From IMG/VR virus record IMGVR_UViG_2651869780_000012: a stretch of 8,872 nucleotides of DNA, one strand, 5' to 3'. The notes under the pieces are model-generated. The model saw only the letters and a program-made list of their open reading frames with translations. It searched no databases and had not been told where the DNA came from. Shown piece by piece: positions 1 through 8,524 of the stretch (its first letter is position 1; the number at the start of each line of letters is the position of its first letter). This stretch comes from a virus (taxonomy: Duplodnaviria; Heunggongvirae; Uroviricota; Caudoviricetes). The position numbers were made by a program, and so were the translations under genes.

Positions 1-2
1 AG

Positions 3-65
3 GACTGGCCGGCAAACCGGGTACGCGATCTGTTGCCCTGGAAAGTTGATCTGAGCTCTCAGTAA
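3..65 (+). CDS. Possible 3' end of upstream gene (small terminase subunit, Nu1-like), partial; reading frame not established
   Basis: Synteny only: in lambda-like phages the small terminase gene lies immediately upstream of A. All three + frames close before position 66 (stops at 47-49, 52-54, 63-65); frame 3 is shown arbitrarily as the longest. Too short to recognise by sequence. Confidence 0.2.
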   Translation, partial: DWPANRVRDLLPWKVDLSSQ

Positions 66-97
66 ATATCAATACGGTTCTGACGAGTCGCTTACCG

Positions 98-2026
98 ATG
101 AATATATCAGAGCAACAACTGAATAATATGGTGGCCGCCGTTTCGGTTGCGCTGCAGCCTCTGGTCAGGGTTGTACCGATGACGGCAGTTGAATGGGCTG
201 ACCAGTATTATTATCTGCCGAAAGAATCCTCATACGGTGACGGCGAATGGAAAACGCTGCCGTTCCAGATCGCCATCATGAACAGTATGGGGAATGATCA
301 GATCCGCACTGTTAATCTGATTAAATCTGCCCGTGTTGGCTATACAAAGATGTTGCTGGGAGTCGCCGGGTATTTTATTGAGCATAAATCCCGAAACAGT
401 CTGCTTTTTCAGCCCACGGATTCTGCCGCTGAAGATTTTATGAAGTCTCACGTGGAGGCGACGATTCGGAACGTGCCATGCCTGAAAGACCTTTCCCCAT
501 GGCTGGGTCGTAAACATCGTGACAATACTCTCACGCTGAAACGCTTTTCATCGGGCGGCGGCTTCTGGTGCCTGGGCGGCGCTGCCGCCAAAAACTACCG
601 TGAAAAATCCGTGGACGTGGTCTGCTATGACGAACTTTCCTCGTTCGAGCCGGATGTCGAAAAAGAGGGCTCGCCAACCCTGCTGGGGGATAAGCGTATT
701 GAGGGCTCGGTATGGCCAAAATCCATTCGCGGCTCGACGCCTAAAATAAAAGGCACCTGCCAGATCGAAAAAGCCGCCAACGAGTCGGCGCATTTCATGC
801 GTTTTTATGTGCCCTGCCCGCACTGTGGGGAGGAGCAGTATCTGAAATTTGGCGATGAGTCCACGCCTTTTGGCCTTAAATGGGAGAAGGACAGCCCCGA
901 AAGCGTTTTCTACCTCTGTGAACATCATGGCTGCGTGATCCATCAGTCTGAGCTTGACCAGAGCAACGGGCGGTGGATCTGCGAAAACACGGGCATGTGG
1001 ACCCGCGACGGTCTGACGTTTTTCAGCGCCCCGGATAATGAAATTCCGCCGCCGCGCTCCATCACATTCCATATCTGGACGGCGTACAGTCCGTTCACCA
1101 CCTGGGTACAGATTGTCTATGACTGGCTGGATGCACTGAAAGATCCCAACGGCCTGAAAACCTTTGTGAACACCACGCTGGGCGAGACCTGGGAAGAGGC
1201 CGTGGGCGAAAAACTCGATCACCAGGTACTGATGGATAAGGTGGTGCGTTACACGGCGGCGGTGCCTGCCCGGGTGGTTTATCTGACGGCGGGCATTGAC
1301 TCGCAGCGAAACCGTTTTGAGATGTATGTCTGGGGATGGGCTCCGGGAGAGGAAGCCTTTCTGGTGGATAAAATCATCATTATGGGGCGTCCCGATGAGG
1401 AAGAGACGCTGTTACGTGTGGATGCGGCGATCAACAAAAAATACCGCCATGCAGACGGAACCGAAATGACCATTTCCCGTGTCTGCTGGGACACCGGGGG
1501 GATCGATGGCGAAATTGTCTATCAGAGATCAAAAAAACACGGTGTTTTCCGGGTGCTGCCGGTAAAAGGCGCATCTGTCTATGGCAAGCCGGTGATCACC
1601 ATGCCAAAAACCCGCAATCAGCGGGGCGTGTATCTGTGTGAAGTGGGAACGGACACCGCAAAAGAAATTCTCTATGCCCGTATGAAAGCCGATCCCACGC
1701 CTGCGGATGAAGCCACGTCGTATGCCATCCGTTTTCCTGATGATCCGGAGATTTTTTCGCAGACAGAGGCGCAGCAACTGGTGGCGGAAGAGCTGGTGGA
1801 GAAGTGGGAAAAAGGAAAGATGCGTCTGCTGTGGGATAACAAAAAGCGGCGTAACGAAGCGCTGGACTGCCTGGTGTATGCCTACGCGGCATTACGTGTG
1901 TCCGTGCAACGCTGGCAGCTTGATCTGGCTGTACTGGCAAAATCCCGGGAAGAAGAGACGACCCGGCCAACCCTGAAAGAACTGGCAGCGAAGCTGTCCG
2001 GAGGAGTGAATGGTTACAGTCGCTGA
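98..2026 (+). CDS. A: Terminase large subunit (lambda gpA-like), 642 aa
   Basis: 642-aa ORF, N-terminus MNISEQQLNN...TAVEWADQYYYLPKES closely resembles lambda gpA (641 aa) as recalled. Conserved deviant Walker-A-like segment IKSARVGYTK (K76 equivalent, nt ~323-352). Cys/His cluster CPHCG...CEHHGC. C-terminal nuclease region motifs (WDTGGID, KKRRNEALDC). Position is first in the packaging/head operon. Confidence 0.95.
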   Translation: MNISEQQLNNMVAAVSVALQPLVRVVPMTAVEWADQYYYLPKESSYGDGEWKTLPFQIAIMNSMGNDQIRTVNLIKSARVGYTKMLLGVAGYFIEHKSRNSLLFQPTDSAAEDFMKSHVEATIRNVPCLKDLSPWLGRKHRDNTLTLKRFSSGGGFWCLGGAAAKNYREKSVDVVCYDELSSFEPDVEKEGSPTLLGDKRIEGSVWPKSIRGSTPKIKGTCQIEKAANESAHFMRFYVPCPHCGEEQYLKFGDESTPFGLKWEKDSPESVFYLCEHHGCVIHQSELDQSNGRWICENTGMWTRDGLTFFSAPDNEIPPPRSITFHIWTAYSPFTTWVQIVYDWLDALKDPNGLKTFVNTTLGETWEEAVGEKLDHQVLMDKVVRYTAAVPARVVYLTAGIDSQRNRFEMYVWGWAPGEEAFLVDKIIIMGRPDEEETLLRVDAAINKKYRHADGTEMTISRVCWDTGGIDGEIVYQRSKKHGVFRVLPVKGASVYGKPVITMPKTRNQRGVYLCEVGTDTAKEILYARMKADPTPADEATSYAIRFPDDPEIFSQTEAQQLVAEELVEKWEKGKMRLLWDNKKRRNEALDCLVYAYAALRVSVQRWQLDLAVLAKSREEETTRPTLKELAAKLSGGVNGYSR

Positions 2027-2216
2027 ACTGCAGGCGCTGCGTCAGGCGCGCCTTGATTTATTAACCGGTAAACGGGTGGTGTCTGTCCAGAAAGATGGTC
2101 GCAGAATTGAATATACGGCGGCTTCTCTGGATGAGCTTAACCGGGCGATCAATGATGCGGAGTCGGTACTGGGGACAACCCGCCGTCGCCGTCGTCCGCT
2201 GGGAGTGAGGTTATGA
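2010..2216 (+). CDS. W: Head completion / head-tail joining protein (lambda gpW-like), 68 aa
   Basis: 68 aa, same length as lambda gpW; LLTGKRVVSVQKDGRRIEYTAAS matches the lambda W core ([24 protein letters not shown] as recalled). GGAGG at 2000-2004, 5 nt before the ATG; overlaps the A 3' end by 17 nt. Confidence 0.9.
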   Translation: MVTVAELQALRQARLDLLTGKRVVSVQKDGRRIEYTAASLDELNRAINDAESVLGTTRRRRRPLGVRL

Positions 2217-3805
2217 AACGAACGCCTGTCCTGATTGATGTGAACGGCGTTCCGCTTCGGGAGAGCCTCAGCTACAACGGGGGCGGTGCAGGATTTGGCG
2301 GGCAAATGGCGGAGTGGTTGCCACCGGCGCAGAGTGCCGATGCGGCCCTGCTGCCCGCGTTGCGTCTGGGGAATGCCCGGGCAGATGATCTGGTGCGCAA
2401 TAACGGGATAGCGGCCAATGCGGTGGCCCTGCATAAGGATCATATTGTCGGGCATATGTTTCTGATCAGCTACCGTCCGAACTGGCGCTGGCTGGGGATG
2501 CGGGAGACTGCAGCAAAAAGTTTTGTCGATGAGGTGGAGGCGGCCTGGTCGGAATACGCCGAAGGGATGTCTGGCGAGATCGACGTGGAAGGGAAACGCA
2601 CGTTTACGGAATTTATCCGTGAAGGTGTGGGCGTTCATGCGTTTAACGGCGAAATCTTTGTGCAGCCGGTCTGGGATACGGAGAGCACGCAACTGTTTCG
2701 TACGCGTTTTAAAGCCGTGAGTCCGAAACGGGTGGACACGCCAGGACACGGTATGGGGAACCGTTTTCTGCGGGCCGGGGTGGAGGTCGATCGATATGGC
2801 CGTGCCGTTGCGTACCATATCTGTGAGGATGATTTTCCGCGCTCCGGGAGTGGACGATGGGAACGGATCCCGCGTGAACTTCCCACCGGGCGTCCGGCCA
2901 TGCTGCATATTTTCGAGCCGGTGGAGGACGGGCAGACCCGTGGGGCCAATCAGTTTTACAGCGTCATGGAACGGCTGAAGATGCTCGATTCCCTGCAGGC
3001 AACACAGCTTCAGTCGGCCATTGTGAAAGCCATGTATGCAGCGACGATTGAAAGTGAACTTGATACCGAAAAGGCCTTTGAATATATCGCCGGCGCGCCA
3101 CAGGAGCAGAAGGATAATCCGCTTATTAATATTCTGGAGAAGTTCTCCAGCTGGTATGACACGAATAACGTGACACTGGGCGGTGTCAAAATTCCGCACC
3201 TTTTCCCCGGTGATGATCTGAAACTACAGACTGCGCAGGATTCAGACAATGGATTTTCGGCGCTTGAACAGGCGCTGCTGCGGTATATCGCCGCCGGTCT
3301 TGGCGTTTCCTACGAACAGTTGTCCCGGGATTACTCGAAGGTCAGTTATTCAAGTGCCAGCGCCTCCGCCAATGAGTCGTGGCGCTATTTTATGGGACGA
3401 CGAAAATTTATTGCGGCCCGGCTGGCCACGCAGATGTTTTCCTGCTGGCTGGAAGAGGCACTTCTTCGGGGGATTATCCGTCCGCCACGGGCGCGTTTTG
3501 ATTTTTATCAGGCGCGATCAGCCTGGTCACGGGCAGAGTGGATTGGAGCCGGAAGAATGGCCATTGACGGGCTCAAGGAAGTCCAGGAATCAGTGATGCG
3601 CATTGAGGCCGGACTGAGCACGTATGAGAAAGAGCTGGCGCTGATGGGCGAGGATTATCAGGACATTTTCCGCCAGCAGGTCAGGGAATCTGCAGAGCGG
3701 CAAAAAGCCGGACTCTCACGTCCGGTGTGGATAGCGCAGGCGTATCAGCAGCAGATAGCGGAGAGTCGCAGGCCGGAAGAGGAGACAACACCACGTGAGA
3801 CGTAA
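2213..3805 (+). CDS. B: Portal protein (lambda gpB-like), 530 aa
   Basis: 530-aa ORF (lambda gpB is 533 aa) in the conserved position between W and C. Start ATG overlaps the W stop (ATGA at 2213-2216). Confidence 0.93.
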   Translation: MKRTPVLIDVNGVPLRESLSYNGGGAGFGGQMAEWLPPAQSADAALLPALRLGNARADDLVRNNGIAANAVALHKDHIVGHMFLISYRPNWRWLGMRETAAKSFVDEVEAAWSEYAEGMSGEIDVEGKRTFTEFIREGVGVHAFNGEIFVQPVWDTESTQLFRTRFKAVSPKRVDTPGHGMGNRFLRAGVEVDRYGRAVAYHICEDDFPRSGSGRWERIPRELPTGRPAMLHIFEPVEDGQTRGANQFYSVMERLKMLDSLQATQLQSAIVKAMYAATIESELDTEKAFEYIAGAPQEQKDNPLINILEKFSSWYDTNNVTLGGVKIPHLFPGDDLKLQTAQDSDNGFSALEQALLRYIAAGLGVSYEQLSRDYSKVSYSSASASANESWRYFMGRRKFIAARLATQMFSCWLEEALLRGIIRPPRARFDFYQARSAWSRAEWIGAGRMAIDGLKEVQESVMRIEAGLSTYEKELALMGEDYQDIFRQQVRESAERQKAGLSRPVWIAQAYQQQIAESRRPEEETTPRET

Positions 3806-5300
3806 TCTTTCACACATTATTGCCGCAGCATTCAATGAACCGCTGCTTCTGGAGCCCGCCTATGCGCGGGTTTTCTTTTGCGCGCTCGGGCGCGAGATGG
3901 GGGCAGCAAGTCTTTCGGTACCACAACAGCAGGTACAGTTTGATGCTCCCGGAATGCTGGCTGAAACGGACGAGTACATGGCCGGAGGTAAACGACCGGC
4001 CCGTGTTTACCGGGTGGTGAACGGTATTGCTGTACTGCCGGTGACCGGCACGCTGGTGCACCGGCTGGGGGGTATGCGGCCATTTTCCGGAATGACAGGC
4101 TATGACGGCATTGTCGCCTGTCTTCAGCAGGCAATGGCGGATAGCCAGGTGCGGGGCGTACTGCTGGACATTGACAGTCCGGGCGGGCAGGCCGCCGGCG
4201 CGTTTGACTGCGCTGACATGATTTACCGCCTCCGTCAGCAGAAGCCGGTCTGGGCACTGTGCAATGACACGGCCTGTTCTGCAGCCATGCTGCTGGCGTC
4301 GGCCTGCTCCCGACGGCTGGTTACCCAGACATCCCGTATCGGCTCCATTGGCGTGATGATGAGCCATGTCAGCTATGCCGGTCATCTGGCGCAGGCCGGT
4401 GTGGATATCACGCTGATTTACTCAGGGGCGCACAAGGTGGATGGCAATCAGTTTGAAGCCTTACCGGCAGAGGTTCGCCAGGACATGCAGCAGCGCATTG
4501 ATGCGGCGCGCCGGATGTTTGCCGAAAAAGTGGCGATGTTTACCGGTCTGTCTGTTGATGCCGTCACGGGAACAGAGGCCGCCGTTTTTGAAGGTCAGTC
4601 CGGCATTGATGCCGGGCTGGCGGATGAATTAGTCAATGCGTCGGATGCCATCAGTGTGATGGCCACGGCGCTGAACAGTAATGTCAGAGGAGGCACTATG
4701 CCGCAATTAACTGCAACGGAAGCCGCCGCGCAGGAGAACCAGCGAGTGATGGGGATCCTGACATGCCAGGAAGCGAAAGGACGTGAACAGCTTGCCACGA
4801 TGCTGGCAGGACAACAGGGCATGAGCGTTGAACAGGCCCGGGCGATTCTGGCCGCGGCGGCACCGCAGCAGCCGGTGGCATCCACGCAGAGTGAAGCCGA
4901 TCGCATTATGGCGTGTGAAGAAGCGAACGGTCGTGAACAACTGGCGGCAACGCTGGCGGCGATGCCGGAGATGACGGTGGAAAAAGCCCGCCCGATCCTG
5001 GCTGCTTCACCGCAGGCGGATGCCGGACCCTCACTCCGTGATCAGATCATGGCACTGGATGAGGCAAAAGGGGATGAGGCGCAGGCTGAACAGCTGGCTG
5101 CCTGCCCGGGAATGACTGTGGAGAGCGCCCGGGCTGTGCTGGCTGCGGGATCAGGTAAGGCAGAACCGGTCTCTGCATCCACAACCGCCCTGTTTGAACG
5201 CATCATGGCGAACCATTCACCGGCAGCGGTACAGGGTGGCGTGCCACAGACGTCAGCAGACGGTGATGCGGACGTGAAAATGCTCATGGCCATGCCATGA
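3795..5300 (+). CDS. C: Prohead protease / scaffold (lambda gpC-like, S49/ClpP-like peptidase family), 501 aa; GTG start
   Basis: N-terminus RRNLSHIIAAAFNEPLLLEPAYARVFFCAL matches lambda gpC (ELRNLPHIASMAFNEPLMLEPAYARVFFCAL). Conserved protease core (NGIAVLPVTGTLV..., PVWALCNDTACSAAMLLASACSRRLVTQTSRIGSIGVMMSH, ITLIYSGAHKVDGN). The frame opens with GTG at 3795, overlapping the B stop by 11 nt; GAGGAG lies ~11 nt upstream. About 60 aa longer than lambda gpC owing to C-terminal repeats. Confidence 0.88.
   Translation: MRRNLSHIIAAAFNEPLLLEPAYARVFFCALGREMGAASLSVPQQQVQFDAPGMLAETDEYMAGGKRPARVYRVVNGIAVLPVTGTLVHRLGGMRPFSGMTGYDGIVACLQQAMADSQVRGVLLDIDSPGGQAAGAFDCADMIYRLRQQKPVWALCNDTACSAAMLLASACSRRLVTQTSRIGSIGVMMSHVSYAGHLAQAGVDITLIYSGAHKVDGNQFEALPAEVRQDMQQRIDAARRMFAEKVAMFTGLSVDAVTGTEAAVFEGQSGIDAGLADELVNASDAISVMATALNSNVRGGTMPQLTATEAAAQENQRVMGILTCQEAKGREQLATMLAGQQGMSVEQARAILAAAAPQQPVASTQSEADRIMACEEANGREQLAATLAAMPEMTVEKARPILAASPQADAGPSLRDQIMALDEAKGDEAQAEQLAACPGMTVESARAVLAAGSGKAEPVSASTTALFERIMANHSPAAVQGGVPQTSADGDADVKMLMAMP
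4686..4693 (+). promoter_or_regulatory. Internal Shine-Dalgarno (AGAGGAGG) for the nested Nu3-like start
   Basis: Strong purine-rich SD core GGAGG at 4689-4693, 4 nt upstream of the in-frame ATG at 4698, inside the C reading frame. Confidence 0.55.
4698..5300 (+). CDS. Nu3: Nu3-like scaffolding protein, translated from an internal in-frame start within C (200 aa)
   Basis: In-frame ATG at 4698 (4698-3795 = 903 = 3 x 301), preceded by AGAGGAGG at 4686-4693. Product begins MPQLTATEAAAQENQRVMGILTCQEAKGRE, matching the lambda Nu3/C C-terminal motif (AAENSRIMGILNCEEAHGREE). In lambda, Nu3 is likewise nested in-frame in the 3' part of C. Confidence 0.6.
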   Translation: MPQLTATEAAAQENQRVMGILTCQEAKGREQLATMLAGQQGMSVEQARAILAAAAPQQPVASTQSEADRIMACEEANGREQLAATLAAMPEMTVEKARPILAASPQADAGPSLRDQIMALDEAKGDEAQAEQLAACPGMTVESARAVLAAGSGKAEPVSASTTALFERIMANHSPAAVQGGVPQTSADGDADVKMLMAMP

Positions 5301-5336
5301 AGTCAGTGCTGACCATCAACAGGAGGTTTTTACAAT

Positions 5337-5684
5337 ATGGTAACGAAAACCATCACTGAACAGCGTGCGGAAGTACGTATTTTTGCCGGTAATGATCCGG
5401 CTCATACCGCCACAGGCAGCAGCGGGATTTCCTCGGCAACACCGGCACTGACGCCCCTGATGCTGGATGAAGCCACCGGGAAACTGGTGGTCTGGGACGG
5501 ACAGAAAGCCGGTAGTGCAGTTGGCATACTGGTACTGCCGCTTGAAGGCACAGAGACGGTACTGACCTATTACAAGTCGGGGACCTTTGCGACGGAGGCA
5601 ATCCGCTGGCCTGAAAGTGTGGATGAACACAAAAAGGCAAATGCCTTTGCCGGCAGTGCCCTGAGTCACGCGGCGCTGCCGTAA
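5337..5684 (+). CDS. D: Head decoration protein (lambda gpD-like), 115 aa
   Basis: NDPAHTATGSSG...TPLMLDEATGKLVVWDG...AVGIL...YYKSGTF...WPE...KKANAFAGSA parallels lambda gpD (GNSDPAHTATAPGG...MTPLMLD...KLVAWDG...AVGIL...FYKSGTF...WPE...AFAGTA). AGGAGG at 5321-5326, 10 nt before the ATG. Confidence 0.92.
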   Translation: MVTKTITEQRAEVRIFAGNDPAHTATGSSGISSATPALTPLMLDEATGKLVVWDGQKAGSAVGILVLPLEGTETVLTYYKSGTFATEAIRWPESVDEHKKANAFAGSALSHAALP

Positions 5685-5691
5685 CACGTTA

Positions 5692-5713
5692 TCAGGCCAC
5701 CGCGGTGGCCTGA
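5692..5713. repeat. Perfect 22-bp palindrome (TCAGGCCACCGCGGTGGCCTGA) in the D-E intergenic region
   Basis: Read directly: positions 5692-5713 are exactly self-complementary (centre CCGCGG). Lies between the D stop (5684) and the E start (5742). Can form an RNA hairpin or be a dyad-symmetric protein binding site. Confidence 0.8.
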
Positions 5714-5741
5714 CTGATTTCTGAATGAAAGGAACTGATTT

Positions 5742-6770
5742 ATGGGATTGTTTACGACCCGCCAGTTACTCGGTTATACCGAACAAAAAGTGAAATTTCG
5801 TGCGCTGTTTCTGGAGCTGTTTTTCCGCCGTACGGTGAATTTCCATACCGAAGAGGTGATGCTGGACAAAATTACCGGAAAAACGCCGGTGGCGGCCTAT
5901 GTCTCCCCGGTTGTTGAAGGAAAAGTGCTGCGTCATCGTGGTGGTGAAACCCGCGTGTTACGTCCGGGCTACGTCAAGCCGAAACACGAATTTAATTACC
6001 AGCAGGCGGTTGAGCGTCTTCCCGGTGAAGATCCGGCTCAGCTGAACGACCCGGCCTACCGTCGTCTGCGTATCATCACTGATAACCTCAAACAGGAAGA
6101 GCACGCCATTGTCCAGGTGGAAGAAATGCAGGCGGTGAATGCCGTGCTGTATGGCAAATACACGATGGAAGGAGACCAGTTCGAGAAAATTGAGGTCGAT
6201 TTTGGCAGGTCGACGAAGAATAACATCACTCAGGGTAGTGGTAAGGAGTGGTCAAAACAGGATCGTGACACGTTCGATCCTACACATGATCTTGACCTCT
6301 ACTGCGACCAGGCCAGCGGTCTTGTGAATATTGCCATTATGGACGGTACCGTCTGGCGTCTGCTGAATGGCTTTAAATTGTTCCGCGAAAAACTGGATAC
6401 CCGTCGCGGCTCTAATTCGCAACTCGAAACAGCGGTGAAAGACCTGGGCGCGGTGGTGTCCTTCAAAGGGTATTACGGCGATCTGGCCATTGTGGTGGCA
6501 AAAACGTCTTATGTGGCAGAGGACGGTACCGAAAAACGTTATCTGCCTGAGGGCTCGCTGGTCCTGGGGAATACGGCAGCAGAGGGCATTCGTTGCTATG
6601 GTGCCATTCAGGATGCGCAGGCGTTGTCCGAAGGTGTGGTGGCCTCTTCCCGTTATCCGAAACACTGGCTGACGGTAGGGGATCCCGCCCGTGAATTTAC
6701 CATGACGCAGTCCGCGCCGCTGATGGTGTTGCCGGACCCGGATGAGTTTGTGGTGGTACAGGTGAAATAA
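5742..6770 (+). CDS. E: Major capsid protein (lambda gpE-like), 342 aa
   Basis: 342 aa (lambda gpE 341 aa) with extensive collinear similarity: PGYVKPKHE, DPAYRR.RII, AIVQVEEMQAVNAVLYGKYTM, DTRRGSNSQLETAVKDLG, GDPAREFTMTQSAPLMVLPDPDEFV. RBS AAAGGA 5728-5733. Confidence 0.95.
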   Translation: MGLFTTRQLLGYTEQKVKFRALFLELFFRRTVNFHTEEVMLDKITGKTPVAAYVSPVVEGKVLRHRGGETRVLRPGYVKPKHEFNYQQAVERLPGEDPAQLNDPAYRRLRIITDNLKQEEHAIVQVEEMQAVNAVLYGKYTMEGDQFEKIEVDFGRSTKNNITQGSGKEWSKQDRDTFDPTHDLDLYCDQASGLVNIAIMDGTVWRLLNGFKLFREKLDTRRGSNSQLETAVKDLGAVVSFKGYYGDLAIVVAKTSYVAEDGTEKRYLPEGSLVLGNTAAEGIRCYGAIQDAQALSEGVVASSRYPKHWLTVGDPAREFTMTQSAPLMVLPDPDEFVVVQVK

Positions 6771-6778
6771 TCCGTGAG

Positions 6779-6808
6779 CGGGGGCGAAATGCCCCCGTGT
6801 CTTTTTTC
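6779..6808 (+). terminator. Rho-independent-terminator-like hairpin plus U-tract immediately downstream of E
   Basis: GC stem 6779-6785 (CGGGGGC) pairs with 6791-6797 (GCCCCCG) around loop GAAAT, followed by TGTCTTTTTTC (T6 at 6802-6807). Located 9 nt after the E stop and before the FI start. Confidence 0.55.
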
Positions 6809-6821
6809 ACAGGGGGATGAT

Positions 6822-7196
6822 ATGGCAACGAAAGAGCAAAATCTGAAACGGCTTGATGAACTGGCCCTGATTCTGGGGCGTGAGCCGGATATATCCGGGA
6901 GTGCCGCAGAGATAGCGCAGCGGGTGGCAGAATGGGAAGAGGAAATGCAGTCATCCGGCGATGATGTACAGGTTATGAATATGGATATCCGGGAGAGGGA
7001 AAACGCGGCTCATGATGTTCGTGAGGATACATCCGGTGCGTTAACGCGCATCAGAGTTCTGACCTGCCTCCATCTCTGTGGCATTGATGGTGAAACAGGG
7101 GAATCCGTTGAGATTGCGGATGTTGGTCGGGTGATTCTGATTATGTCCTCAGATGCAAAAACACACGTTGATGGTGGAATGGCTGTTTATGCGTGA
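6822..7196 (+). CDS. FI: DNA packaging / head assembly protein FI-like, 124 aa
   Basis: Acidic ~125-aa protein in the lambda FI position. N-terminal region (KEQNLKRLDELALILG...AAEIAQRVAEWEEE) resembles lambda FI (KDELIARLRSLG...EELALRVAELKEE); the rest is divergent. Start chosen at ATG 6822 with AGGGGGA 6811-6817; the track's upstream ATG at 6774 would run through the terminator hairpin. Confidence 0.72.
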   Translation: MATKEQNLKRLDELALILGREPDISGSAAEIAQRVAEWEEEMQSSGDDVQVMNMDIRERENAAHDVREDTSGALTRIRVLTCLHLCGIDGETGESVEIADVGRVILIMSSDAKTHVDGGMAVYA

Positions 7197-7542
7197 TTTT
7201 CAGAATGCCTTTGATGCCGCCCTTGCCGGGGTGGACAGTACGATTGTTGAAGTGATGGGCATCAGTGCGCAGTTCACCTCCGGTGCACAGCGTGGCGGCG
7301 AAGTTCAGGGGGTTTTTGACGATCCGGAGTCGCTGGGGTTTGCCAGTAGCGGGATCCGTATTGAAGGAAGCAGCCCGTCATTATTTGTGCGGACGGATAC
7401 GGTTCGTGCCGTGCGGCGTGGTGACACGCTGACCATTAATGGTGAGACATTCTGGGTGGATCGTGTTTCTCCGGATGACGGGGGCAGTTGTTATCTCTGG
7501 CTCAACCGTGGGCAACCACCCGCAGTTAACCGGCGACGATAA
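7189..7542 (+). CDS. FII: Head-tail connector protein FII-like, 117 aa
   Basis: MRDFQNAFDAALAG...GVFDDPESLGFASSGIRIEGSSPSLFVRTDTVRAVRRGDTLTINGETFWVDRVSPDDGGSCYLWLNRGQPPAVNRRR closely matches lambda FII (MADFDNLFDAAIA...GVFDDPENISYAGQGVRVEGSSPSLFVRTDEVRQLRRGDTLTI...FWVDRVSPDDGGSCHLWLGRGVPPAVNRRR). Start at 7189 by homology; overlaps the FI stop by 8 nt. Confidence 0.9.
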   Translation: MRDFQNAFDAALAGVDSTIVEVMGISAQFTSGAQRGGEVQGVFDDPESLGFASSGIRIEGSSPSLFVRTDTVRAVRRGDTLTINGETFWVDRVSPDDGGSCYLWLNRGQPPAVNRRR

Positions 7543-7556
7543 ACGCAGGGTGAATT

Positions 7557-8132
7557 ATGGCGATAAAAGGGCTTGATCAGGCGATTGAAAATCTGAGCCG
7601 GGTTCGTAAAAACGCCATTCCGGCGGCTTCAGCAATGGCCATTAACCGCGTGGCCACAACGGCGATTAATCAGTCTTCGTCACAGGTTGCCCGGGAGACC
7701 AGGGTGAGCCGGAAACTGGTAAAGGAACGGTCCAGACTGAAACGGGCCACGGTCAGAAATCCGAATGCCAAAATTATCGTTAACCGCGGTGATCTCCCGG
7801 CTATTAAGCTGGGGATCAGGATGCTTGGTCATCGTCCGAACAGCATACTTAAAGCCGGTCAGCATCGTTATCAGCGGGCATTCATCCAGCGATTAAATAA
7901 TGGGCGCTGGCATGTTATGCAACGTTTGCCAGAAGCCCGGTATGCGAAGGGCAATGACGATAAAGGAAGGAAAAAGCGTAATCGTCTTCCCATTCAGGTG
8001 GTTAAAATTCCGATGGCGGCCCCACTGAAGCAGGCTTTTGATGAGAACGTTAACCGTATCCGGCGAGAACGTCTGCCAAAAGAACTGGCATCCGCGCTGA
8101 AACAACAACTGAGGATTGCAATAAAACGATGA
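7557..8132 (+). CDS. Z: Minor tail protein Z-like (tail completion), 191 aa
   Basis: MAIKGLDQAIENLSR...AMAINRVATTAINQSSSQVARETRVSRKLVKERSRLKRATVRNP...VNRGDLPAIKLG...AFIQRLNNGRWHVMQR...VVKIPMAAPL...[25 protein letters not shown] is near-collinear with lambda gpZ (192 aa). Confidence 0.95.
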   Translation: MAIKGLDQAIENLSRVRKNAIPAASAMAINRVATTAINQSSSQVARETRVSRKLVKERSRLKRATVRNPNAKIIVNRGDLPAIKLGIRMLGHRPNSILKAGQHRYQRAFIQRLNNGRWHVMQRLPEARYAKGNDDKGRKKRNRLPIQVVKIPMAAPLKQAFDENVNRIRRERLPKELASALKQQLRIAIKR

Positions 8133-8524
8133 AACACACTGACATTCGTGCCGCAGTGCTGGATGCACTCGAGCAGCATGAACACGGGGCGACGCTGTTT
8201 GATGGTCGCCCCGTTGTTTTTGACGAAGAGGATTTTCCTGCGATCGCGGTTTATCTGACGGATGCAGAGTATACCGGTGAAGAGCTGGATGCAGATACCT
8301 GGCGGGCCACGCTGCATATTGAGGTGTTTTTACCGGCACAGGTACCGGATTCAGAGCTTGATCAGTGGATGGAAAGCCGGATTTACCCGGCGATGACCGC
8401 GATCCCGGCACTGGCAGGACTGATTACCACGATGGTTACGCAGGGCTATGAGTATCGTCGTGATGACGATATGGCGTTATGGAGTTCTGCAGATCTGACT
8501 TATTCCATTACATACGAGATGTGA
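8129..8524 (+). CDS. U: Tail terminator protein U-like, 131 aa
   Basis: 131 aa, same length as lambda gpU, and highly similar throughout ([54 protein letters not shown]...[25 protein letters not shown]...YRRDDD...[14 protein letters not shown]). Start overlaps the Z stop (ATGA). Confidence 0.95.

What the first reader, a model, noticed from the sequence alone, without database searches (positions are those of the whole stretch)
2010..8132. Start/stop overlaps at five gene junctions, including a GTG start for C
Junction overlaps are A/W 17 nt, W/B 4 nt (ATGA), B/C 11 nt with a GTG initiator, FI/FII 8 nt, and Z/U 4 nt (ATGA). This pattern implies translational coupling that fixes relative expression. 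The GTG start for C is inferred from where similarity to lambda gpC begins and is the least certain start in the window.
Basis: seen in the sequence. Interest (0 to 1): 0.22.

Follow-up and report, generated by a model that had tools for sequence, protein, structure and literature searches.

The report
Ordinary gene overlaps in phage-21-type late operon
The five start/stop overlaps and the GTG start of the head protease gene are real, but they are the long-annotated, typical junctions of a phage 21/lambda-type head gene cluster, so the finding is correct and ordinary.

Summary
The window is the A-W-B-C/Nu3-D-E-FI-FII-Z-U part of a phage-21-type lambdoid late operon. The same starts are annotated in the original phage 21 record M81255 and in modern records. 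The GTG start of C is well supported. It is the only ATG/GTG/TTG between the upstream stop and the conserved N-terminus. It is kept, with the 11-nt overlap and a GGAGG-type ribosome-binding site, in relatives from Salmonella, Trabulsiella and Providencia. Lambda C also starts with GTG, three codons further upstream, while N15 uses ATG at that position. Overlaps are not enriched here: 5 of 10 junctions in the window against 44% genome-wide in a close relative. W/B, Z/U and B/C overlaps are conserved across lineages. A/W and FI/FII are not. Translational coupling is plausible, especially at the -4 and -8 junctions, but it is not implied by the sequence and was not tested. W, B and C have strong ribosome-binding sites of their own. 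The finding is already known and of low interest. In passing, an ISCro1 insertion ends 2 nt before A's ATG and has removed Nu1.

The parts
1..95 (+). Right end of an IS66-family element (ISCro1), comprising the 3' end of its transposase gene and the terminal inverted repeat ...GTCGCTTAC. It has replaced the 3' part of Nu1 and the native upstream context of A.
   Evidence: 100% identity over 95 nt to the ISCro1 copy in NZ_CP106924 (L088 3501-3595). Homology to the phage resumes at 97.
98..2026 (+). Gene A (phage 21 gene 2), the large terminase subunit.
   Evidence: Pfam GpA_ATPase and GpA_nuclease. 66% identity to lambda gpA.
2010..2026 (+). A/W overlap of 17 nt. W's ATG is preceded by GGAGGAG.
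   Evidence: The same overlap occurs in phage 21 and Gifsy-1. It is -4 in lambda, -1 in N15 and Trabulsiella, and +1 in Providencia.
2010..2216 (+). Gene W (phage 21 gene 3), head completion / adaptor protein, 68 aa.
   Evidence: Pfam gpW. Same length as lambda gpW, 50% identity.
2213..2216 (+). W/B overlap, ATGA (-4).
   Evidence: -4 is kept in lambda, N15, Gifsy-1 (GTGA), Trabulsiella and Providencia (GTGA).
2213..3805 (+). Gene B (phage 21 gene 4), portal protein. Its acidic C-terminal tail codons (EEE) form the Shine-Dalgarno sequence of C.
   Evidence: Pfam Phage_portal_2..
3795..3805 (+). B/C overlap of 11 nt. The GTG start of C is at 3795-3797 and the TAA stop of B is at 3803-3805.
3795..5300 (+). 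Gene C (phage 21 gene 5), S49 prohead protease fused to a scaffold domain, with a GTG start.
   Evidence: Pfam Peptidase_S49. It is the only start candidate between the in-frame stop at 3756 and codon 35. The N-terminus aligns with lambda gpC from residue 3.
4698..5300 (+). Nested in-frame gene Nu3 (phage 21 gene 6), scaffold. Its ATG is preceded by the strongest Shine-Dalgarno sequence in the window (AGAGGAGG, -12 kcal/mol).
   Evidence: Annotated in phage 21 records.. Invariant in 80 of 82 loci.
5337..5684 (+). Gene D / shp, head decoration protein. It is not overlapped (36-nt gap before it).
   Evidence: Pfam HDPD.
5742..6770 (+). Gene E, major capsid protein. It is not overlapped (57-nt gap before it, containing a hairpin at 5692-5713).
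   Evidence: Pfam Phage_cap_E..
6822..7196 (+). Gene FI, DNA packaging chaperone. Its start is ATG 6822, after a terminator-like hairpin at 6778-6798.
   Evidence: Pfam Packaging_FI from residue 3. Annotations..
7189..7196 (+). FI/FII overlap of 8 nt, ATGCGTGA (-8 class).
   Evidence: It is kept in phage 21, E. albertii and PhiR12, but there is a gap of 10-11 nt in lambda, N15, Gifsy-1 and E. coli L090.
7189..7542 (+). Gene FII, head closure / tail attachment protein.
   Evidence: Pfam Phage_attach. 69% identity to lambda gpFII from residue 1. In E. albertii only this ATG is available.
7557..8132 (+). Gene Z, tail completion protein.
   Evidence: Pfam Minor_tail_Z.
8129..8132 (+). Z/U overlap, ATGA (-4).
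   Evidence: -4 is kept in lambda, N15, PhiR12, D2, E. coli L090 and E. albertii.
8129..8524 (+). Gene U, tail tube terminator.
   Evidence: Pfam Phage_tail_U, full length from residue 1. 80% identity to lambda gpU.

Best explanation
The window is the head and proximal-tail part of the late operon of a phage-21-type lambdoid prophage. That prophage has been disabled by an ISCro1 insertion in Nu1. The five overlaps are the normal, long-annotated junctions of this gene module.

Shown here:
- The start and stop positions.
- Their identity with the published phage 21 annotation.
- Conservation of the W/B (-4), Z/U (-4) and B/C (-11 or -20) overlaps across diverged lineages.
- Conservation of GTG at C in all six other 21-type sequences compared (about five distinct lineages) and in lambda.

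Inferred:
- At W/B, Z/U and FI/FII (-4, -4, -8) a ribosome terminating on the upstream gene probably reinitiates on the adjacent start. This matters most for FII and U, whose Shine-Dalgarno sequences are weak or badly spaced.
- At A/W and B/C the downstream start has a strong Shine-Dalgarno sequence embedded in the last codons of the upstream gene (GGA GGA in A, GAG GAG in the Glu-rich tail of B). These starts can probably initiate de novo as well as by coupling.
- At C, the GTG codon plus a 9-10 nt spacer would give a low yield of the full-length protease. The nested Nu3 scaffold would be made in excess from an internal ATG with the strongest Shine-Dalgarno sequence in the window.

The overlaps therefore contribute to, but do not by themselves fix, relative expression.
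For: - Coordinates and codons.
- Identical annotation in M81255, OL657228, NC_049948 and PV340551.
- Pfam identity of all ten proteins.
- N-terminal alignments with lambda proteins.
- GTG as the only candidate start for C.
- GTG, overlap and Shine-Dalgarno sequence kept in E. coli, E. albertii, Gifsy-1, Trabulsiella (71% aa) and Providencia (62% aa); lambda uses GTG at -20; N15 uses ATG at -20.
- Shine-Dalgarno energies: W -9.5, B -8.5, C -9.1, Nu3 -12.0, FII -4.9, U -5.9 kcal/mol.
- The C and U start regions are unusually unstructured in every lineage tested.
- Overlap nucleotides are depleted of polymorphism.
- -4, -1 and -8 are the enriched, coupling-associated spacings, and overlapping pairs often encode complex partners: PMC12548453, PMC6728339 and the abstract of PMC10666635.
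- W-B and B-C are known interacting pairs in lambda: PMC3224144.
Against: - No translation data (Ribo-seq, reporter fusions, polarity tests) for this phage or for lambda could be consulted, so coupling is inferred from geometry only.
- The overlap frequency is at the genome-wide base rate.
- The A/W and FI/FII geometries are not conserved.
- Strong Shine-Dalgarno sequences at W, B and C allow independent initiation.
- Opening-energy patterns for W, B and FII differ between the window, lambda and Gifsy-1.
- From my own recollection, not checked here, Sampson et al. 1988 (PNAS 85:5439) attributed lambda late-gene expression ratios to gene-specific translation initiation rates.
- In this copy the operon sits in an IS-disrupted prophage, so present-day function is moot.
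Confidence: 0.8

Rival explanations
1. The overlaps have no regulatory role. They are by-products of genome compaction and of drifting stop codons. Each gene's output is set by its own initiation site, independently of translation of the upstream gene.
For: - 44% of co-directional neighbouring pairs overlap genome-wide in ev017, so 5 of 10 is unremarkable.
- A/W changes between -17, -4, -1 and +1, and FI/FII between -8 and +10/+11, among functional relatives.
- The -17 A/W overlap looks like a frame change that put an ancestral TAATG/TGAATG stop out of frame.
- W, B and C have strong Shine-Dalgarno sequences, and the C and U start regions are open.
- The review notes that -4 is abundant partly because it evolves easily.
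Against: - W/B -4, Z/U -4 and the B/C overlap persist down to 41-62% protein identity, even when the start codon changes between ATG and GTG.
- FII and U lack a well-placed Shine-Dalgarno sequence.
- Tested overlapping pairs in E. coli are generally coupled (PMC6728339).
Confidence: 0.3
2. C does not start at GTG 3795 but at a downstream in-frame ATG. The first is at 3897, codon 35.
For: GTG is a less common initiator than ATG, and the GGAG-to-GTG spacer in the window is long at about 10 nt.
Against: - Starting at codon 35 would delete residues 3-34 (RNLSHI..AFNEPLLLEPAYARVFFCAL), which are conserved with lambda, Gifsy-1, Trabulsiella and Providencia.
- All relatives keep a GTG (ATG in N15) plus a GGAGG-type Shine-Dalgarno sequence just upstream of this block.
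- The original and the modern phage 21 annotations use the GTG.
Confidence: 0.03
3. FII starts at one of the upstream in-frame ATGs (7153 or 7171). The FI/FII overlap would then be 44 or 26 nt rather than 8.
For: The ORF is open from 7153 and contains ATGs at 7153 and 7171.
Against: - Similarity to lambda gpFII starts exactly at the 7189 Met.
- Lambda, N15 and Gifsy-1 FII start at the equivalent codon after a gap.
- In E. albertii the ORF offers only the equivalent ATG.
- PhiR12 has an unrelated sequence upstream of the same ATG.
Confidence: 0.04

Closest known systems
Phage 21 head gene operon (GenBank M81255, genes 2-3-4-5/6-shp-7-ORF1-8; complete genome OL657228; genus Jouyvirus)
   Same: The gene order, all five overlap lengths (17, 4, 11, 8, 4), the GTG start of gene 5 and the nested gene 6 are the same. 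Identity is about 94% in DNA and 98% for the C protein.
   Different: The window carries an ISCro1 end in place of the 3' part of gene 1 (Nu1). It also differs by point substitutions, and its best DNA matches are PhiR12-type phages.
Bacteriophage lambda late operon, Nu1-A-W-B-C/Nu3-D-E-FI-FII-Z-U (NC_001416)
   Same: The gene order is the same. W/B and Z/U are ATGA. B/C overlaps and C starts with GTG behind a GAGGAGG Shine-Dalgarno sequence in the Glu codons of B. The B stop lies inside the CGT AAT codons of C. D, E and FI are preceded by gaps.
   Different: A/W is -4 instead of -17. B/C is -20, with the start three codons further upstream. FI/FII has an 11-nt gap and FII starts with GTG. Protein identities are 24-80%.
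Translationally coupled overlapping gene pairs (termination-reinitiation; e.g. trpB/trpA and the pairs tested by Huber et al. 2019)
   Same: The genes are co-directional, with -4 (NTGA) and -8 (NTGNNTGA) spacings. A Shine-Dalgarno sequence lies in the 3' end of the upstream gene. The partners belong to one assembly (W-B, B-C).
   Different: Dependence of downstream translation on upstream translation has not been shown here. Two junctions (-11, -17) have overlaps in the range where reported coupling efficiency declines.

Membership tests
Lambda/phage 21-type head-tail gene module | Gene content and order A-W-B-C(Nu3)-D-E-FI-FII-Z-U on one strand. | tested here: met
   Pfam families for all ten proteins. 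Synteny with lambda, phage 21, N15 and Gifsy-1.
Lambda/phage 21-type head-tail gene module | Intact small terminase gene (Nu1 / gene 1) overlapping the start of A. | tested here: not met
   Window 1-95 is an ISCro1 end. Only the last codons of Nu1 (..DEYIRATTE*) remain, and there is an in-frame stop at 52-54. The module is a member, but this copy is disrupted.
Translationally coupled gene pair (termination-reinitiation) | Co-directional genes whose stop and start overlap or lie within a few nucleotides. | tested here: met
   Spacings of -17, -4, -11, -8 and -4.
Translationally coupled gene pair (termination-reinitiation) | Junction geometry conserved among diverged relatives. | tested here: inconclusive
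   Met for W/B, Z/U and B/C. Not met for A/W (-17/-4/-1/+1) or FI/FII (-8/+10/+11).
Translationally coupled gene pair (termination-reinitiation) | Translation of the downstream gene depends on translation of the upstream gene. | not testable with these tools
   This needs premature-stop or reporter experiments, or Ribo-seq. No such data for lambda or phage 21 late genes were found in the paper library.
Translationally coupled gene pair (RNA-unfolding type) | The downstream ribosome-binding site is sequestered in secondary structure that upstream ribosomes open. | tested here: inconclusive
   In the window the W, B and FII sites have average opening energies (33rd-66th percentile), while C and U are open. 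In lambda W and B are open, and in Gifsy-1 W is open while B is closed.
GUG-initiated gene | GTG is the only possible start upstream of the conserved N-terminal residues, and a Shine-Dalgarno sequence precedes it. | tested here: met
   No ATG/GTG/TTG lies between the stop at 3756 and 3795, and the next start is codon 35. GAGGAG lies 10 nt upstream, -9.1 kcal/mol.
GUG-initiated gene | The start codon and its position are conserved in orthologues. | tested here: met
   GTG at the same codon in six other 21-type sequences (about five distinct lineages) and invariant in 81 near-identical loci. Lambda has GTG and N15 has ATG three codons upstream.
GUG-initiated gene | The protein N-terminus has been determined experimentally. 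| not testable with these tools
   No N-terminal data for phage 21 gp5 or lambda gpC were retrieved.

The most novel reading that the evidence does not exclude
The B/C junction may be a conserved dosing device. It consists of a Shine-Dalgarno sequence written in the Glu codons of the portal's tail, a GTG start kept in two different registers (-11 and -20), and the portal's stop placed inside codons 3-4 or 6-7 of C. Ribosomes finishing the portal gene would back-scan 8-17 nt and reinitiate at a weak codon. This would tie protease-scaffold output to portal output at roughly one-to-one for the portal-centred initiator complex, while Nu3 is made independently in excess.
Probability: 0.25. Interest if true: 0.2.

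Novelty: already known. Interest (0 to 1): 0.06.

Why it matters
It matters little. The result confirms that the gene starts in this window are called correctly, including the non-ATG start of the prohead protease. It also shows that the junction architecture is the one annotated for phage 21 in the original GenBank record (M81255) and closely parallel to lambda. The only practical consequences are for annotation quality and for anyone re-engineering this operon. The W/B, B/C and Z/U junctions should be kept intact, because they are the evolutionarily conserved ones.

Tried and rejected
- IMG/VR relatives of C were all 98-99% identical, so they said little about conservation. They were used only for the polymorphism counts.
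- The GTDB genome scan gave only 5 loci. Two of them (Trabulsiella, Providencia) were usefully diverged.
- Attempts to read Liu et al. 2013 (lambda Ribo-seq), Sampson et al. 1988, Casjens & Hendrix 2015 and Medina et al. 2010 failed because they are not held.
- Literature searches for coupling in lambda late genes or for the gpC N-terminus found nothing specific.
- The RNA opening-energy analysis, meant to detect occluded start sites at overlapped junctions, gave a pattern in the window that did not replicate in lambda or Gifsy-1. It is reported as inconclusive.
- A downstream ATG start for C and upstream ATG starts for FII were considered and rejected on homology grounds.
- The 'Tri box' repeats annotated in phage 21 gene 6 were not detectable as DNA direct repeats of 20 nt or more.
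- Distant S49-protease phages do not share the junction in detail. PS6 has a portal/protease overlap of 8 nt with ATG, PPF1 has an extra gene between portal and protease, and Michonne has a gap.
Full report
**What the window is**

The ORF map and megablast against phage records show that the window is 94-96% identical to the late-operon left arm of phage-21-type lambdoid phages (PhiR12, ev017, phage 21). Pfam identifies each product:
- A: GpA_ATPase and GpA_nuclease
- W: gpW
- B: Phage_portal_2
- C: Peptidase_S49
- D: HDPD
- E: Phage_cap_E
- FI: Packaging_FI
- FII: Phage_attach
- Z: Minor_tail_Z
- U: Phage_tail_U

Global alignments with the lambda proteins give 24-80% identity, with matching N-termini.

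**Checking the observation**

Direct reading of the junctions confirms every number in the finding.

| Junction | Coordinates | Overlap | Detail |
|---|---|---|---|
| A/W | A 98-2026, W 2010-2216 | 17 nt | GGAGGAG precedes W's ATG |
| W/B | B starts at 2213 | 4 nt | ATGA |
| B/C | B ends 3805, C starts 3795 | 11 nt | GTG start; B stop TAA at 3803-3805 |
| FI/FII | FI ends 7196, FII starts 7189 | 8 nt | ATGCGTGA |
| Z/U | Z ends 8132, U starts 8129 | 4 nt | ATGA |

Four independent annotations of relatives give the same starts and overlaps:
- the original phage 21 head-operon record M81255
- the curated phage 21 genome OL657228, with ribosome-binding sites marked
- RefSeq ev017
- PhiR12

**Is it more than chance?**

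The number of overlaps is not. In the RefSeq annotation of ev017, 27 of 61 co-directional neighbouring gene pairs (44%) overlap, and 12 of 22 in the late operon do. The classes are -4 (14 pairs), -1 (4) and -8 (3). The window's 5 of 10 junctions is the base rate.

The review by Brown and Wade (PMC12548453) states that -4, -1 and -8 are the enriched spacings in prokaryotes generally. Huber et al. (PMC6728339) give about 15% overlapping pairs across prokaryotic groups.

What does exceed chance is the conservation of the overlap nucleotides. Among 80 near-identical IMG/VR loci, 17% of window positions vary. Only 1 of the 44 overlap nucleotides does, against 7.5 expected. This is what dual coding plus start and stop signals would produce. 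The loci are not phylogenetically independent.

**The GTG start of C**

The C frame opens after a TAG at 3756. The first ATG/GTG/TTG is the GTG at 3795, and the next is an ATG at codon 35. Residues 3-34 (RNLSHIIAAAFNEPLLLEPAYARVFFCAL...) align with lambda gpC, so a downstream start would delete a conserved segment.

Comparison of diverged relatives settles the matter:
- E. coli L090, E. albertii, Salmonella Gifsy-1 (about 64% aa), Trabulsiella guamensis (71%) and Providencia alcalifaciens (62%) all have GTG at the same codon.
- All have an 11-nt overlap.
- In all, the portal's TAA lies inside C codons CGT AAT.
- All have a GGAGG-type Shine-Dalgarno sequence written in the Glu codons of the portal's acidic tail.

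Lambda's own C also starts with GTG, three codons further upstream, with a 20-nt overlap. N15 uses ATG at that lambda position. The GTG is invariant in 81 close relatives. No experimental N-terminus was found.

**The other starts**

- FII: the ORF is open from 7153, but similarity to lambda FII begins at the 7189 Met. The E. albertii homologue offers only the equivalent ATG.
- W, B and U: these begin at the same residues as their lambda homologues.
- FI: it begins at ATG 6822, after a terminator-like hairpin.

**How conserved is each junction?**

- W/B is -4 in lambda, N15, Gifsy-1, Trabulsiella and Providencia, even where the start is GTG (GTGA).
- Z/U is -4 in lambda, N15, D2, PhiR12, E. coli L090 and E. 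albertii. In Gifsy-1 an IS lies between Z and U.
- B/C always overlaps, at -11 or -20.
- A/W varies: -17 (phage 21, Gifsy-1), -4 (lambda), -1 (N15, Trabulsiella), +1 (Providencia).
- FI/FII varies: -8 (21-type) against +10/+11 (lambda, N15, Gifsy-1, L090).

An out-of-frame TGA sits directly before W's ATG in the window, and Gifsy-1 carries an out-of-frame TAATG. The -17 overlap therefore probably arose from a frame change in A's tail.

**Mechanism**

Anti-Shine-Dalgarno pairing energies and spacers are as follows.

| Gene | Energy (kcal/mol) | Spacer (nt) |
|---|---|---|
| W | -9.5 | 4 |
| B | -8.5 | not noted |
| C | -9.1 | 9-10 |
| Nu3 | -12.0 | 3 |
| D | -11.0 | not noted |
| FII | -4.9 | 10 |
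| U | -5.9 | 12 |

FII and U are thus the genes most likely to depend on reinitiation by ribosomes terminating 1-5 nt away. W, B and C could initiate on their own.

Predicted opening energies of the ribosome-binding regions show that C and U are unusually open in every lineage tested. The values for W, B and FII are not consistent between the window, lambda and Gifsy-1. An RNA-unfolding form of coupling is therefore neither supported nor excluded.

The review reports that coupling efficiency falls as the overlap grows from -4 to -25. That argues for weaker coupling at B/C (-11) and A/W (-17).

W-B and B-C are interacting partners in the portal-centred initiator of lambda head assembly (PMC3224144). 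This fits the general observation that overlapping pairs often encode complex partners (abstract of PMC10666635).

My reading has three parts:
- Coupling is probable at W/B, Z/U and FI/FII.
- Coupling is possible but partial at B/C and A/W.
- The GTG plus a long spacer at C serves to keep the full-length protease scarce relative to Nu3.

None of this is shown. From memory only, Sampson et al. 1988 attributed lambda late-gene ratios to gene-specific initiation rates.

**Context noticed**

Window 1-95 is 100% identical to the right end of an ISCro1 (IS66-family) copy. The IS ends 2 nt before A's ATG. Nu1, and with it the family's sixth overlap (Nu1/A, 29 nt), is gone, so this copy of the operon belongs to a defective prophage.

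The two long gaps contain terminator-like hairpins, at 5692-5713 and at 6778-6798 followed by a T-run. The N15 record annotates the equivalent structures as putative terminators.

**Verdict**

The feature is already known and ordinary.

Noticed in passing
window 1-97: The first 95 bases are 100% identical to the right end of an IS66-family ISCro1 element, comprising the transposase 3' end and the terminal repeat ...GTCGCTTAC. The IS ends 2 nt before A's ATG, so Nu1 (small terminase) is cut off and A has lost its native upstream context. The prophage is probably defective. Another E. coli genome (NZ_CP106924) has ISCro1 in the same Nu1 gene at a different site.
   Followed up: yes
window 5692-5713 and 6778-6808: Terminator-like G+C-rich hairpins lie in the D/E and E/FI gaps. 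The second is followed by TTTTTT. The N15 record annotates the equivalent stem-loops as putative rho-independent terminators. They may explain why these junctions are gaps rather than overlaps.
   Followed up: partly
window 4683-4700: The nested Nu3 start (ATG 4698, in frame within C) has the strongest Shine-Dalgarno sequence in the window (AGAGGAGG, -12 kcal/mol, 3-nt spacer). This contrasts with the GTG and long spacer at the C start. It was invariant in 80 of 82 related loci.
   Followed up: partly
window 2000-2026; L086 3221-3247; L093 2703-2715; L095 2479-2491: An out-of-frame TGA sits directly before W's ATG in the window, and Gifsy-1 has an out-of-frame TAATG. N15 and Trabulsiella use TAATG in frame (-1), and lambda uses ATGA. 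The 17-nt overlap looks like the result of a frame change in the last codons of A.
   Followed up: partly
L084 (lambda) 711, 4418, 7612; L086 (Gifsy-1) 3431; L094 (Providencia) 1014; L095 (N15) 4265: Start-codon choice drifts among relatives. Lambda A, C and FII are GTG. Gifsy-1 and Providencia B are GTG (GTGA with W's stop). N15 gene 5 is ATG where lambda C is GTG.
   Followed up: partly
window 4765-5159 (equivalent of M81255 5542-5936): The original phage 21 record annotates three 'Tri box' repeats of unknown function inside gene 6/Nu3. The window's C is 62 aa longer than lambda's. No DNA direct repeats of 20 nt or more were detected there, so any repeats must be weak or at the protein level.
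   Followed up: partly
window 7557-8132; L001 7977-8510: Z is the most polymorphic gene among close relatives, with 33% variable sites. PhiR12 and E. albertii carry a shorter Z (534 nt against 576 nt), which suggests mosaic exchange in the Z region.
   Followed up: no
L086 (Gifsy-1) 9406-10536: Gifsy-1 has an IS transposase gene inserted between Z and U on the opposite strand, which breaks the otherwise conserved Z/U ATGA junction.
   Followed up: no
window 4703-4716 and 4937-4950 (from L002 4961-4974, 5195-5208): The curated phage 21 record marks two minus-strand TTGYN6TTGY 'CII binding site' pattern matches inside C/Nu3. These are pattern matches only and were not examined.
   Followed up: no
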